A stretch of 64,000 nucleotides of DNA from the human T2T-CHM13v2.0 reference genome, Homo sapiens. Of this stretch, positions 24,396 to 31,600 are shown one piece after another. The notes below the pieces were generated by a model. That model had not been told where the DNA came from. It saw only the letters and a program-made list of their open reading frames with translations, and did no database searches. How positions within the stretch are numbered: position 1 is the first letter of the stretch; each line of letters begins with the position of its first letter. Both the position numbers and the translations under genes were made by a program. The stretch lies in assembly GCF_009914755.1 (NCBI RefSeq), contig NC_060939.1. One strand, 5' to 3'.

Positions 24396-26127
24396 TAAAT
24401 CTGTGATTTTTTTTAGCTAAGAATAAAATCAGCACATTTAACCATGTTGGAAGTATTTTGACCCTTCCCTCAGCTGGAGACTCTCAGTGGCCAACAACCC
24501 CGGGTCTAGGTAGCCTTTGGAGCAGTAGTGGGTTCCTTTTTCCCAGTTCTTTAGAATTAGACCCCTTATTTGGGGGAACGGGTTCACATTTTTAGCCTAG
24601 AGAGCAAGGAGTGTTGTTCCTTCCATGTGTTGTTAGATCGACTGTCTGCTGGTAGGTTGGTGGCCAGCAGAGACCTACTCTGCCCGACCTGGCCTCAGTG
24701 GACGCCAGGACCTTGCTTCCTTCTTCCTCAGCAGCCCAAGCTCCCGCTTCCTGAGTGGAAGTCTTGTGTTCTATGTGTTGGGGCCTTTTATGAAACAGTA
24801 TGCAAGATAATGGGTTCACCAAGAGAAAAAGGAGGAGAAAGGGATGACAGAATTTTAGCCATAGCCACACAGGCAGAGCAAATGAAAGAATTTCAAATAT
24901 GGTGTAAGAATATATTCCAAAAGAGGTAGGAATTTATAATATGGACCCTGCTTTCTTCCATAGAAAGATTTGAGGCATGCTACAGCAAAAATACACATCA
25001 AAAACACACATCGCTTGGAACATAATTTATTCATTCAAATTATATTAACTGCCCTACTTTCATGTGCTAGGAGCTAGGCCTATACCTGAACAAGATGGAC
25101 ATAGACCCTGCTCCTATGCAGCTTCTACTGGAATTGAGTAAGGTTGCAAATGAAATCAGAAATCACACAAGAAAGTTTGTGTCTGTTGGGGTGGTTCAGA
25201 GCTGGAAGGAAACAAAATGATCATCTCCAATATTCTTTATCTTATAGATGAGGAAATAGTGGTTCAGAAATATTGTAACTGATCCAAAGATGAAACAGTT
25301 TTTTCATTTGAGCACGAAAATTTGCTCTGAGGAAATAGGAAAATATCTATTACCTGGGTTTCCTGGCTTTCGGTGCTTGATTAAGAGAGAATAGTTAGGG
25401 AAAGGAGACTTCTTTGGGGGGATGCTAATTTATGAAAAAAATGATCTGGATCCTTATATCACAGACATGAAGAGACAATGAAACATTCTTAATATGACTA
25501 TATAAAATCGTTAGCCCTTCATGAAATTGAGCCATATAGTATTGTGTTGTATTTTAGTGAAGAGATTTCTGTATGGGTTTAAACTACTGCATAGTTCAAG
25601 ACTGTAACTTTGTTTAATCTAACTTGACATAAGAATGTAACCAAAAAAATCTGGAAAAATGTTTAACTCTTTTAAAGTCCAGCATCGAGCAGCCACTCAG
25701 CCAATATGATGACTGAAGCTCTTCAGATGAAACCACTGCCCCCACCCAGCTGTCTGGTCCAGTCAGGTCCTTTTTTAATAGCATGTTTTGGGGTCCTAAA
25801 TTATCTGTGTAGTTGTCTCAGTAGAAGGGAAACTGACGAGAAAAAGAAACAGGGATGTTTGAATATGTTGTTCTTACTTTTATTAGAACATAGACTCCTA
25901 GAGCTGGAATTGTATCTTGGATTTTTGGTTCCGCTGGTAGCACACCGTGCTCAATAAAAATTAATCCATCAATCAACAGGACAGAAAATCCCATCCTGCC
26001 AGAAGCAATACTTCCTGTTTGTCCCATACAAAGCCAATTAGAGTGTTAGGATGTTGTAATGGAGACAGAAACTAAGGAAAGCGGCAAAAATAAAAAAATT
26101 CCCCCAAAACATCAAATAGAAAATGTA

Positions 26128-26341
26128 GGGGTAGGGGGATTGGGGGCACAAGATGGGTTGAACCAGATAGGGAAGATCCCCCAGTGTTGTCCTGCTCCCA
26201 GTCCAGGTTTGGGAAAATGCCGGCAGCGTTTCCCTGTGTCTTTCCCTCACAAAGTCTCCAAGTCTCTCCTCGAATGAGCTCCAAGGCTTGGGAGAAACAA
26301 TCTCTTCCTCTGCCCGGGTTGCGTGGATCTCCAGTGGAAAG
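26128..26341 (+). other. Leader exon of the captured transcript (TPTE2 pseudogene-type first exon)
   Basis: Lies between the 5' TSD and the TPTE2 coding exon and ends in AAG| like an exon end. It encodes MPAAFPCVFPSQSLQV...[18 protein letters not shown], which I recall resembling the N-terminus annotated for TPTE2P1 (unverified). Confidence 0.6.
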
Positions 26342-26682
26342 GAAGAACCGGAACTATGGTTTGTGCGCTCCTTATTGCCTCCGAAATATTTTTAACTGCA
26401 GAGGAAAGCCTGTATTATTTTGGAGAAAGGCGAACAGATAAAACCCACAGCAATAAATTTCAGGGAGTAGAAACTCCTTGTCAGAATAGATATGTTGGAT
26501 ATTTTGCACAAGTGAAACATCTCTACAACGGGAATATCCCTCCAAGACGGATACTCTTTATAAAAAGATTCATTATTTATTCGACTCATGGTGTTGGAAC
26601 AGGTGATGTATGTGATCTACAATTCCAAATAGTAATGGAGAAAAAGGTTGTCTTTTCCAGTACTTCATTAGGAAATTGTTCG
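26342..26682 (+). pseudogene. Processed fragment of TPTE2/TPIP-family phosphatase coding exons captured by the SVA
   Basis: Translation [55 protein letters not shown]...[14 protein letters not shown] matches the TPTE2 PTEN-like phosphatase C-terminal part and the start of C2. It is intronless and the catalytic HCKGGK segment is absent. Confidence 0.88.
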
Positions 26683-26720
26683 CTGCCTCCCTTGGCCTCC
26701 CAAAGTGCTAAGATTACAGC

Positions 26721-28110
26721 CTCTGCCCGGCTGGCACCCCGTCTGGGAAGTGGGGAGCGTCTCTGCCTGGCCGCCCATCGTCTGGGATGTGGGGAGCCCC
26801 TCTGCCCGGCCACCCCGTCTAGGAAGTGAGGAGTGCCTCTGCCCGGCTGCCACCCCGTCTGGGAAGTGAGGAGTGTCTCTGCCCGGCCGCCCATCGTCTG
26901 GGATGTGAGGAGTGCCTCTGCCTGGCTGCCCCATCTGGGATGTGAGGAGCGCCTCTGCCCAGCCGCCCCATCTGGGATGTGAGGGGCATCTCTGTCCGGC
27001 CGCCACCCCGTCTGGGAAGTGAGGAGCGCCTCTGCCTGGCTGCCCCACCTGGGAGGTGAGGAGCGCCTCTGCCTGGCTGCCCTTCGTCTGGGAGGTGGGG
27101 AGTGCCTCTGCCTGGCCGCCCTGTCTGGGAAGTGGGCACCTCTGCCCGGCCACCCCATCTGGGAGGTAAGGGGTGTCTCTGCCCGGCTGCCCCGCCTGGG
27201 AAGTGAAGAGCGCCTCTGCTCGGCTGCCCTTCGTCTGGGAGGACGGGAGCGCCTCTGCCCGGCCGCCCCATCTTGGAGGTGAGGGGCATCTCTGCCCAGC
27301 CACCCTGTCTGGGAGGTGGGGAGCGCCTCTGCCCGGCCGCCCATCGTCTTGGATGTGAGGAGCACCTCTGCCCGGCCGCCACCCCATCTGGGAGGTGAGG
27401 AGCGCCTCTGCCCGGCTGCCACCCCGTCTGGGAAGTGAGTTGCGCCTCTGCCAGGCCGCCCCTTCTGGGAGGTGAGGAGCGCCTCTGCCCGGCCGCCCTT
27501 CGTCTGGGAGGTGGGGAGCGCCTCTGTCCGGCTGTCCCATCTGGGAAGTGGGCGCCTCTGCCCGGCCACCCCATCTGGGAGGTGAGGGGCGTCTCTGCCC
27601 AGCCACCCCACCTGGGAAGTGAGGAGCGCCTCTGCCTGGCTGTCCTTCGTTTGGGAGGTGGGGAGTGCCTCTGCCCGGCCGCCCCGTCTGGGAAGTGGGC
27701 GCCTCTGCCTGGCTGCCCCATCTTGGAGGTGAGGGGCGTCTCTGCCTGGCCACCCTGTCTGGGAGGTGAGGAGCGCCTCTGCCCGGCCGCCCCGTCTGGG
27801 AGGTGGGGAGCGCCTCTGCCCAGCCGCCCATCGTCTGGGAGGGGAGGAGCGCCTCTGCCTGGCCACCCCGTCTGGGAAGTGGGGGTCGCCTCTGCCCGGC
27901 CGCCCCGTCTGGGAGGTGGGGGGCGCCTCTGCCCGGCTGCCCATCATCTGGGATTTGAGGAGCACCTCTGCCCGGCCGCCACCTCGTGTGGGAGGTGAGG
28001 AGCGCCTCTGCCCAGACGCTACCCCATCTGGGAAGGGAGGTGCACCTGTGCCCGGCCCCTCTGTCTGGGAAGTGAGGAGCGCCTCTGCCAGGCCGCCCTG
28101 TCTGGGAAGT
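26721..28110 (+). repeat. SVA VNTR, ~35-45 bp GC-rich units
   Basis: Tandem cctctgcccggccgcc...cgtctgggaagtgaggagcg units with many CpG>TpG/CpA changes. Confidence 0.95.
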
Positions 28111-28398
28111 GTACCCAACAGCTCTGAAGAGACAGTGACCATCAAGAACGGGCCATGATGACGATGGCAGTTTTGTCGGAAAGAAAAGGGGGAAATGGGA
28201 AAAGAAAGATCAGATTGTTACTGTGTCTGTGTAGAAAGAAGTTGACATAGGAGACACCATTTTGTTCTGTACTAAGAAAAATTCTTCTGCCTTGGGATGC
28301 TGTTAATCTTTAACCTTACCCCCAACCCCATGCTCTCTGAAACATGTGCTGTGTCAACTCAGGGTTAAATGGATTAAGGCCGGTGCAAGATGTGCTTT

Positions 28399-28436
<38 letters not shown>

Positions 28437-28868
28437 AAGCTGTATATTTACTCATTGAAACACTCGGTGAAATCAGGGTAAAATCAACTAAAGGAAAAAT
28501 AGTTGTTTCATTCATTTGAACTTAAACCAACTAAAGTAGTACTCATGTCATTACGACGCAGCAAATACGAGACCTCTTTCTACAAAGATTAGCACAACCA
28601 ACAAATTAGGGGATATAGCAAAACAGAGCCAAAAACGGTAAGAAATCAATTAAGTATGTTACAGCTTAACCCTTTACCTCAATAGTTTTTAAAAAATAAG
28701 CAAAGCCTCCCAATCCCAAACAATACGAATACATCTTCATCACCAATTTGTACTTGTATTTCTTATTCTTGAGGTTAGATTCTAAACCCTAAAGATATCC
28801 AAACTCGTATTAGATCTACTTATCTATAGCCAGAGACGGCAGCCAAGGTTATTAAAATGTCTTTTCTA

Positions 28869-29314
<446 letters not shown>

Positions 29315-29395
29315 CTATGAGGGATGGGAGGAGGGGAGAGGAAGGATTCAGCCAGTGTCCAGACTGAAATTGAGTAATATCAGTTTCACTCATCT

Positions 29396-30313
29396 TCACA
29401 CGTCTTCAGGTTGCATGTTCATGGAGTAGTTTAGGAATAAATCCATGGTTTGTGGAGTACTAAAATACCTAGTGGTCTGCTGTATTACATTAAGGCCTTC
29501 CCCAGCAGCTTCCAAGGCAGCCTCCAAGTCACTGGCAGGAGAATTTGGCTGGAAGTGCATGCAGGACTGCAGAGATTCCTCTCCACAGTTATAGAAGGGA
29601 CTGTTCCAGGCCTGATTGTTCCAGGATTGGGTGCACCAGGTCTGAGTGTTCCAGGAGTGGTTGCTCCAGGACTGGATGTTCTGGGTCTGGTTGCTCCAGG
29701 TTGAATTGTTCCAGGTCTGGTTGCTCCACATTGGAAGGTTCCCAGTCGGGTTCACCAGGCATCCCTGGTGGTAGGAAGAGTAGAGGCTGGGGTAGGTAGG
29801 TGCTGAGGCCTTCTGCGTCACACCATTGCTATTCTTCGGCCAGTTGTTTTTCTGCCACCTCTTAGATTTCATTCTCTGGTTCTGGAACCAGGTCTTCACC
29901 TGTTTGTAGCTGAGGTTCAGGATGTTGGAGAGTTCTTGCATCTGCTGGAGGCTGAGGTATTTCTGTCTCTGAAATCTATCATTGAGTACACACAGCTGGG
30001 TGGAAGAGAACACAGTTCTGGTCTTCTGTTTCTTGACCGGGACCTTGTCTTCCTTTTTTGCGACACTATTCTCTGCAGAAGTGGGTTGTTTGCCTTTGGG
30101 ACTGGTGGAAGAATCAGGGCTGTCCTGAATAAGCAGATCCATGGAGGAAGGAAGAGGAGAGACAGTCTCTGTGTGAGGCATCTCAGCAGAAGACATTTGC
30201 AAGGATGGATAGTTTTCTTCAGGCCCACAAATCACAGGCATAGGTGAAGATTCTTTACAGTCGGATGCTTCAAAGCAAGGCAAGCTTTGGGGACAAGCTG
30301 GATCCACACTCAT
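29396..30313 (-). CDS. NANOGP8: NANOG homeobox retrogene, intact intronless 305-aa ORF
   Basis: [13 protein letters not shown]...MQPEDV with homeodomain ([13 protein letters not shown]...[15 protein letters not shown]) and Trp pentapeptide repeats. No introns. His253 (CAC, 29557-29555) replaces NANOG Gln253, the known NANOGP8 diagnostic. Asn82 at 30070-30068. Confidence 0.97.
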
Positions 30314-31600
30314 GTTAGTATAGAGGAAGAGGAGGAAAAAATTTAAGAGGTGGACTGGAAAAAAGGTTAAGGCAGCTTTAAGACTTTTCTGGAAGATGTT
30401 AGAGAAATAGGACCTCCAGAAGGAAAAGTATCAAGAAATTGGGATAAAGTGAGTTGCCTGCATAATAACATGAGGCAACCAGCTCAGTCCAGCAGAACGT
30501 TAAAATCCTGGCAAGATGTGCTTTGTTAAACAGATGCTTGAAGGCAGCATGCTGGTTAAGAGTCATCACCACTCCCTAATCTCAAGTACCCAGGGACACA
30601 AACACTGCTGAAGGCCGCAGGGACCTCTGCCTAGGAAAACCAGAGACCTTTGTTCACGTGTTTATCTACTGACCTTCTCTCCACTATTATTCTATGACCC
30701 TGCCACATCCCCCTCTCTGAGAAACACCCAAGAATGATCAATAAATACTAAAAAAAAAAAAAAAAAGAAAATGTAACTGGACACAAACAGGTAACGGTGG
30801 AAAGCCACTACCCAATTCCATTTTCCCCTTGACACTTTCTTTCAACTTATCCTCAATGTAATAGAAGTTTGACTGCAGAGTGGCATCTTGGACTGCCCAC
30901 GTTTCCTGGTCAGTGTTGGGCAGGGGAAGCTGTCTGCCTTCCTAACAGCTCACCCAGAGGGCACTCACTGCGGCGCTCCCAGCAGTCTTCCCATCTACCT
31001 GACGCCCCCACCTGGGCACCAGCTCCTGAGTTCTCCTTGCTCAGCTTTGCTTGGTCAGAAAACAAGAAGGACAATTCATCTGGGAAGGGATAAATAGGCA
31101 GCTGGCAAGAGAGAGCAAGCTAGTTACTACTGATAAGGGAGGGTGGGTGTGGGAAGGAAAGCGAGACAGGCAAATTGGGAATTCTTTGTGTCATGAACCC
31201 TCTTGAGAATTGATTAAAAGCTACCAAGGCTTTCTCCAGAACACAACCATATGCATATGTGCACACAATTTTGCATTCATTTCATGAGTTCCCATCTCAC
31301 TTTCACACAAACATACCTCTTGTTCTAAAAACAAACTCTAGAAGCTATAAGCTTCCAAATCTTACTAACCAAGAAATTCTGAAAGACTTTTTAATCATGG
31401 CAACTTTTTAATATCAAGGATTCTCCAATTGTAGTCTTATATGTTTCAAATATAATCAGTTTCAAAAGCAATTCCTAAAACACTAAAAATGGTCAAAATG
31501 GACACTTATGGTAAAAAATACTTGTTACCAATGTTTCGTCCCACGTTGCAAAGCACGCTGTATTTCAAGTTTCTACATATGCATTTACATAAAATTATTT

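What the first reader, a model, noticed from the sequence alone, without database searches (positions are those of the whole stretch)
26128..26730. Exon-trapping junction: the SVA hexamer head is replaced by a spliced host transcript
Seen: there is no (CCCTCT)n and most of the Alu-like domain is missing. TPTE2 sequence stops at ...AATTGTTCG (26682) and continues as CTGCCTCCCTTGGCCTCCCAAAG. From my recall of the SVA consensus (…cctcccAG|ccgcctgccttggcctcccaaag), this is immediately after an AG acceptor. The leader joins the coding exon at GGAAAG|GAAGAACC (26341/26342). Inference: the source is an SVA inside a TPTE2-family gene or pseudogene, transcribed from the host promoter. The insert begins with GGGG, compatible with full-length reverse transcription to the cap.
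Basis: partly seen in the sequence, partly recalled or inferred. Interest (0 to 1): 0.7.

Follow-up and report, generated by a model that had tools for sequence, protein, structure and literature searches.

The report
SVA jumping gene carrying TPTE exons
An old SVA jumping gene on human chromosome 15 begins with five spliced exons of a TPTE-family phosphatase gene in place of its own head, likely because a gene transcript spliced into an SVA and was copied back into DNA; the mechanism is known, but a second copy on chromosome 3, probably of separate origin, joins the same exon end to a different SVA.

Summary
Observation confirmed. 26128-26682 is five TPTE-family exons with introns removed exactly. 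Its last base is a GT donor in 9 of 9 paralogs. The next base, 26683, follows a CAG in 4 of 4 intact SVAs, with 1 nt of shared sequence. A 10-bp target-site duplication encloses exons, SVA body and the nested NANOGP8 retrogene. This is exon trapping of the MAST2-SVA_F1 kind. No SVA lies in any of 9 paralogs from the leader to about 10 kb past the donor. The GGGG is templated, with a 2-nt microhomology, so it does not show a cap. The leader is antisense sequence of an old intronic L1, not the CpG-island promoter. Extra finding: a chr3 element joins the same TPTE donor to another SVA acceptor, in another SVA subfamily, from another paralog lineage (AU p=0.0012). A lost intronic SVA is the likeliest source; trans-splicing is not excluded. 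The two 2009 papers most likely to list these loci were not readable.

The parts
26118..26127 (+). 5' copy of target-site duplication AGAAAATGTA; bottom-strand cut TTCT/AT, an L1 endonuclease-type site
   Evidence: the same cut motif is listed for an SVA insertion in the table of PMC4859970
26128..26341 (+). E1, non-coding leader exon, antisense sequence of the 5' end of an old L1 in a TPTE-family intron; ends at GGAAAG|gt
   Evidence: 97% identical to chr13:18.63 and chr13:23.79 Mb
26342..26403 (+). E2, TPTE-family coding exon (starts inside the phosphatase motif, GRTGTMV)
26404..26484 (+). E3, TPTE-family coding exon
26485..26590 (+). E4, TPTE-family coding exon
26591..26682 (+). E5, TPTE-family coding exon (start of the C2 domain), long form; ends at the GT donor
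26683..26718 (+). last 36 nt of the SVA Alu-like domain, starting right after the SVA's CAG acceptor
26719..28111 (+). SVA VNTR, about 37 copies of a 37-nt unit
28112..28401 (+). SINE-R, 5' part, with the 16-bp segment of the small old SVA subfamily
28402..30510 (-). NANOGP8 retrogene nested later in the SINE-R, between 17-bp duplications at 28385-28401 and 30511-30527
   Evidence: annotation; PMC3484675
30528..30765 (+). SINE-R 3' part, AATAAA at 30740-30745, poly(A) from 30750
30766..30775 (+). 3' copy of the target-site duplication
26356..26829 (+). open chimeric frame of 157 codons (109 TPTE-derived, the rest SVA), preceded by three upstream ATGs; no evidence of expression

Best explanation
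This is an SVA retrotransposon insertion whose head is five spliced TPTE-family exons joined exactly from an exon's splice donor to an SVA splice acceptor, likely made when a germ-line transcript of a TPTE-family copy spliced into a sense SVA in the next intron and was then copied into chromosome 15 by L1 proteins. Shown: exact intron removal, donor-to-acceptor junction, poly(A), target-site duplication, later NANOGP8 insertion. Inferred: the source SVA sat in cis in the roughly 4-kb intron after E5 of a TPTE2-like copy or allele that is no longer in this genome; the RNA ended at the SVA's own poly(A) signal; it began in or upstream of an antisense L1 5' end, possibly at an L1 antisense promoter; the copy may be 5'-truncated. 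A second capture, inferred to be independent, of the same donor by a younger SVA gave the chr3:100.18 Mb element. Neither founded a subfamily: only these two processed copies were found.
For: Exons map as five blocks; all five donors are GT in 8 of 9 paralogs (the chrY copy has lost the E2 donor), and the E5 donor is GT in 9 of 9. The junction follows CAG in 4 of 4 intact SVAs, with 1 nt shared. At this acceptor the paralogs' own antisense Alus have no AG in the aligned hits, so the acceptor is SVA-specific. The TSD encloses everything. Lost or rare source SVAs are common: PMC12593883 found sources for 84% of transduction-bearing SVAs and none for the rest, including two transductions from chr13 (passages). 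No extant paralog could make this RNA as it stands: chr13:18.63, chr21, chr14, chr13p and chrY lack the E5 acceptor it used, and chr13:23.79 and 24.17 Mb lack the E4 AG. That points to an ancestral or lost template. The element is shared by human, chimpanzee and gorilla and absent in orangutan (PMC3484675), old enough for a source to be lost. TPTE-family RNA is testis-expressed (PMC3229583).
Against: The cis source SVA was not found in 9 of 9 paralogs; a tenth, at chr13:40.05 Mb (87% identical in E5), was not read. Two separate SVA insertions into the same short intron of two paralog lineages, both captured and both lost, is a demanding coincidence. The exon parts of the two chimeras differ by 19 of 329 nt and their SINE-R parts by 31 of 524, nearly the same rate, as a single duplicated source would give. 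The start site of the RNA is untested.
Confidence: 0.75

Rival explanations
1. Trans-splicing: the E5 donor of a TPTE-family pre-mRNA was joined to the acceptor of a separate SVA RNA, perhaps brought close by pairing of the SVA's antisense Alu-like domain with sense Alus in the intron after E5. No SVA ever sat in the gene.
For: No source SVA in 9 of 9 paralogs. The same donor is used twice, with two SVA subfamilies and two acceptors 50 nt apart. Each of 9 paralogs has a sense Alu in that intron, and 7 of 9 have two. Trans-splicing has been proposed, not shown, for the origin of gibbon LAVA (PMC5174737, passages).
Against: Sense Alus also lie after E2, whose donor was not captured. Missing sources are routinely explained by loss. 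Trans-splicing is rare in mammals (own knowledge). No direct evidence here.
Confidence: 0.13
2. One ancestral TPTE copy with one intronic SVA, duplicated with the segmental duplications, gave both the chr15 and the chr3 chimera through alternative first exons and acceptors.
For: Same donor; equal divergence of exon and SINE-R parts (5.8% and 5.9%). SVAs are known to co-amplify with duplications (RHOT1 group, PMC9132208).
Against: The SVA bodies differ by a 16-bp indel that splits the family into 121 and 2083 genome matches. The data reject a chr15+chr3 clade (AU p=0.0012; the pair was named after a first tree had been seen). chr3 uses the short E5 acceptor and groups with the chr21/14/13p copies, with weak support of 86/80. 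No duplicate carries the SVA.
Confidence: 0.05
3. Template switching by L1 reverse transcriptase from SVA RNA to a spliced TPTE mRNA, or DNA-level deletion or recombination, made the join.
For: Template switching between an SVA and a processed pseudogene is reported (PMC12593883). For the chr3 element only, intronic antisense Alus of the paralogs have the same CAG acceptor and share its first 11-22 nt, so splicing to such an Alu followed by a switch cannot be excluded there.
Against: At chr15 the join hits both a donor and an SVA-specific AG with 1 nt shared; chance about 1.5e-4.
Confidence: 0.05

Closest known systems
MAST2-SVA_F1 (human), with the MRPS18A-SVA insertion at the same acceptor
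   Same: [quoted passage not shown]
   Different: Old SVA_A body; five exons, four of them internal coding exons, not a GC-rich first exon; leader from antisense L1; a single copy, no subfamily. Whether the AG is the very same base as in SVA_F1 was not tested (figures not held).
STK40 pt_SVA_D6 (chimpanzee)
   Same: First exon of a testis-expressed gene spliced to the Alu-like region (PMC6139936).
   Different: 94 copies against 1; there the acceptor could not be reconstructed, here it is exact.
RHOT1 SVA transduction group
   Same: SVA carrying host-gene sequence; cited from the 2009 papers in PMC9132208. That it holds several spliced exons on an SVA_A is my recall.
   Different: Spread by segmental duplication; different gene.
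SVA_A host of NANOGP8 (PMC3484675)
   Same: The very same element: SVA_A, shared by human, chimpanzee and gorilla.
   Different: [quoted passage not shown]

Membership tests
SVA retrotransposon | VNTR of about 37-nt GC-rich units | tested here: met
   26719-28111, 36.8 copies
SVA retrotransposon | SINE-R, poly(A) signal and tail | tested here: met
   493 of 524 nt identical to the chr3 SVA's SINE-R; AATAAA 30740, tail from 30750
SVA retrotransposon | target-site duplication at an L1-type cut | tested here: met
   10 bp, 26118-26127 and 30766-30775
canonical full-length SVA | 5' hexamer array and whole Alu-like domain | tested here: not met
   no array; 36 nt of Alu-like sequence left
SVA_A subfamily | 16-bp segment at the SINE-R start that younger subfamilies lack (the link of this indel to SVA_A is recalled) | tested here: met
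   present; 121 genome matches against 2083 for the deleted form; labelled SVA_A in PMC3484675
exon-trapping (spliced 5'-transducing) SVA | host part is spliced, introns removed exactly | tested here: met
   four internal joins at GT/AG boundaries
exon-trapping (spliced 5'-transducing) SVA | host part ends at an exon's donor | tested here: met
   GT follows in 9 of 9 paralogs
exon-trapping (spliced 5'-transducing) SVA | SVA part starts right after an AG | tested here: met
   4 of 4 intact SVAs
exon-trapping (spliced 5'-transducing) SVA | sense source SVA downstream in the donor gene | tested here: inconclusive
   absent in 9 of 9 paralogs of one genome; a tenth not read; other haplotypes and apes not available
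exon-trapping (spliced 5'-transducing) SVA | transcription from a host promoter up to a capped start | not testable with these tools
   no CAGE or RNA data; G run templated, 2-nt microhomology
SVA_F1 subfamily | MAST2 exon 1 leader on an SVA_F body | tested here: not met
   leader is TPTE-family; body has the old-subfamily segment
plain processed pseudogene of TPTE/TPTE2 | runs to the gene's own last exon and poly(A) | tested here: not met
   three further C2 exons follow E5 in the chr13:18.63 copy but are absent from the insert

The most novel reading that the evidence does not exclude
The TPTE-family E5 donor is a recurrent trans-splicing partner of SVA RNAs in the germ line, guided by pairing of intronic sense Alus with the SVA's Alu-like domain. 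It was captured twice, by two SVA subfamilies and from two paralog lineages, without any SVA ever sitting in the gene. SVA exon capture would then not need an intronic insertion.
Probability: 0.13. Interest if true: 0.72.

Novelty: new member of a known kind. Interest (0 to 1): 0.35.

Why it matters
The mechanism is established, so the chr15 junction alone is a clean extra example. It adds a detail to a much-studied locus: the SVA that hosts NANOGP8 is a three-layer composite (L1-derived leader, TPTE exons, SVA) and preserves a splice pattern that no TPTE copy in this genome can still make. The pair matters more. Two captures of one donor with no source in nine paralogs is a natural test of whether source-less exon-trapped SVAs come from lost alleles or from trans-splicing, answerable with complete ape genomes and testis long reads.

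Tried and rejected
Cap-derived G: not supported; the G run equals the source's. HERV-K-like hits behind E5 at chr13:23.79 and 24.17 Mb as the source SVA: rejected; they are a solo LTR of about 940 bp without VNTR. chr20:55.37 and chr22:38.86 Mb hits as further chimeras: rejected; they are genomic copies of the CpG-island exon running on into its intron. TPIP-C2 cDNA as the source transcript: rejected; its 5' UTR is Alu plus L3/CR1 with an extended exon (PMC3229583). The 14-nt stretch in the chr3 tail as a tag of the source: the only exact match is itself, plus 2 two-mismatch hits against 1 in the control. Selection on the 157-codon frame: not claimed; with about 15 differences in 341 nt an open frame is unremarkable. 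Literature: six searches with TPTE or RHOT1 and SVA terms listed no paper on TPTE-SVA chimeras (20 of 23 hits listed, 28 of 31, 25 of 31). Damert 2009, Hancks 2009 and the 2010 SVA review are not held. The one supplementary file of PMC10681720 held as text had no hit; locus tables that I could not see may list these elements.

Full report
What is there. The window holds one retrotransposon insertion from 26128 to 30765 between copies of a 10-bp target-site duplication. It consists of 555 nt of non-SVA sequence, 36 nt of SVA Alu-like domain, a VNTR at 26719-28111, a SINE-R and a poly(A) tail. The NANOGP8 retrogene sits inside the SINE-R between its own 17-bp duplications. PMC3484675 (passages and section 13 read) calls the element SVA_A, present in human, chimpanzee and gorilla and absent in orangutan; it does not mention TPTE.

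The head is a spliced RNA. Searching the genome with 26129-26682 gave one other continuous match (chr3) and exon-sized blocks at nine loci on chr13, 14, 21 and Y. I read about 20 kb of each of the nine. The head splits into E1 26128-26341, E2 26342-26403, E3 26404-26484, E4 26485-26590 and E5 26591-26682. All five blocks end at GT in 8 of 9 loci; the chrY copy has lost the E2 donor. E2-E5 translate without a stop into the end of a phosphatase domain and the start of a C2 domain, closest to a TPTE2 structure (E 6.7e-33; PTEN_C2 E 3.5e-4, under the cut-off). Gene names for the paralogs (TPTE2 at chr13:18.63 Mb, TPTE on chr21) are recalled from position and come from no call.

The junction. E5 ends at its donor in 9 of 9 paralogs. 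The top SVA matches to 26640-26790 begin at query base 43, the last exon base. In 4 of 4 intact SVAs fetched (three top matches and one), the base matching 26683 follows CAG; only the G is shared across the join. This is a splice junction, not a deletion or template switch.

The 5' end. The paralogs read cagccctaGGGGTAGGGGGA, so the G run is templated and the last two TSD bases repeat the source. PMC3287187 (passages) reports both untemplated G at full-length SVA insertions and 1-2-nt microcomplementarity at 5 of 11 insertions; this junction shows the second sign and cannot show the first. The leader is part of an interspersed repeat shared at about 80% with chr2 and chr7 loci. On the opposite strand, upstream, lie L1 ORF1 remnants: 2 of 5 frames scanned hit L1 ORF1 families (E 8e-5 and 6e-3). 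The leader therefore runs antisense through an L1 5' end, starting about 465 nt and splicing about 250 nt from it. An antisense-promoter start is plausible by analogy with young L1s (PMC4859970, passages) but untested; a pyrimidine-rich AG 256 nt upstream would allow an internal exon instead.

The source. The head differs by 20 of 555 nt from both chr13:18.63 and chr13:23.79 Mb, and the tree leaves these unresolved. Five paralogs, 18.63 among them, lack the E5 acceptor that this RNA used; 23.79 and 24.17 lack the E4 AG; the two that keep both are 86% identical. For the five, my E5 row includes 12 bases that are intronic in those copies. No VNTR was found in any of the nine, through the 4-kb intron after E5 and past the last C2 exon; two carry a solo HERV-K LTR. 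A tenth paralog at chr13:40.05 Mb (87% in E5) was not read.

A second chimera. chr3:100,183,947-100,185,513 (minus strand) has a 15-bp duplication, a 202-nt, 78% GC first exon spliced straight to E2, then E2-E5 and an SVA. Genomic copies of that first exon end at a GT donor. It uses the same E5 donor, but an SVA acceptor 50 nt further upstream, again after CAG in 4 of 4. Its SINE-R lacks a 16-bp segment that chr15 has; the two forms have 2083 and 121 genome matches. It uses the short E5 and groups, weakly, with the chr21/14/13p copies; a clade of the two chimeras is rejected (p=0.0012; named after the first tree). Against independence, exon and SINE-R parts have diverged equally. For chr3 alone, splicing to an intronic antisense Alu followed by a switch to SVA RNA remains possible.

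Mechanism. Splicing into an SVA acceptor followed by L1-driven copying is shown by anatomy (about 0.95). That the SVA lay in cis on a lost allele or paralog is inferred (0.75 overall); PMC12593883 (passages) found no source for 16% of recent transducing SVAs. Trans-splicing is the boldest reading left (0.13); PMC5174737 (passages) proposed it for LAVA.

Comparison and novelty. It works like MAST2-SVA_F1 and STK40-pt_SVA_D6 (PMC6139936, first fifth and passages read) but belongs to neither. No held paper on TPTE-SVA chimeras appeared in six searches. The two 2009 genome-wide papers could not be read; I have an unverified recollection that TPTE exons appear among their examples and put the chance that at least one of these loci is already listed at about 0.6. 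PMC9132208 and PMC3229583 were read as passages; of PMC10681720 only one supplementary file was searched.

Verdict. Real, correctly described, known mechanism; new member of a known kind. Interest 0.35, carried mainly by the twin capture without a source.

Noticed in passing
L037 (G000:C3:100183947-100185513, minus strand): Second TPTE-SVA chimera: CpG-island first exon spliced directly to E2, skipping the exons between (the chr21 and chr13p copies of the two exons lie about 68 kb apart), younger SVA, short VNTR, stop codon in E5, and 14 non-A bases inside the tail with no source found.
   Followed up: yes
L032 (G000:C13, about 23,799,660-23,800,590) and L035/L036 (G000:C13, about 24,164,830-24,165,770): Solo HERV-K-type LTR of about 940 bp inserted in sense into an antisense Alu about 2.2 kb after E5, shared by two paralogs and absent from the other seven.
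   Followed up: partly
window 28402-28614: The NANOGP8 retrocopy extends about 210 nt beyond the annotated transcript end (28615) to its poly(A) at 28402-28430, and carries an Alu at about 28871-29170 in its 3' UTR.
   Followed up: no
window 25864-26395: The predicted lncRNA LOC105370765 has its last exon antisense over the leader and most of E2, starting inside the TPTE-derived sequence.
   Followed up: no
L053 (G000:C20:55365750-55366620) and L054 (G000:C22:38862450-38863260): Genomic copies of the TPTE CpG-island first exon and intron start on chr20 and chr22, with no E2-E5 match on those chromosomes; the chr20 copy has about 56 extra bases near the donor.
   Followed up: partly
L033, L038, L040, L042, L044: A 3-nt deletion removes the upstream E5 acceptor in five paralogs that do not form one clade in the exon tree, a hint of gene conversion among TPTE copies.
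   Followed up: no
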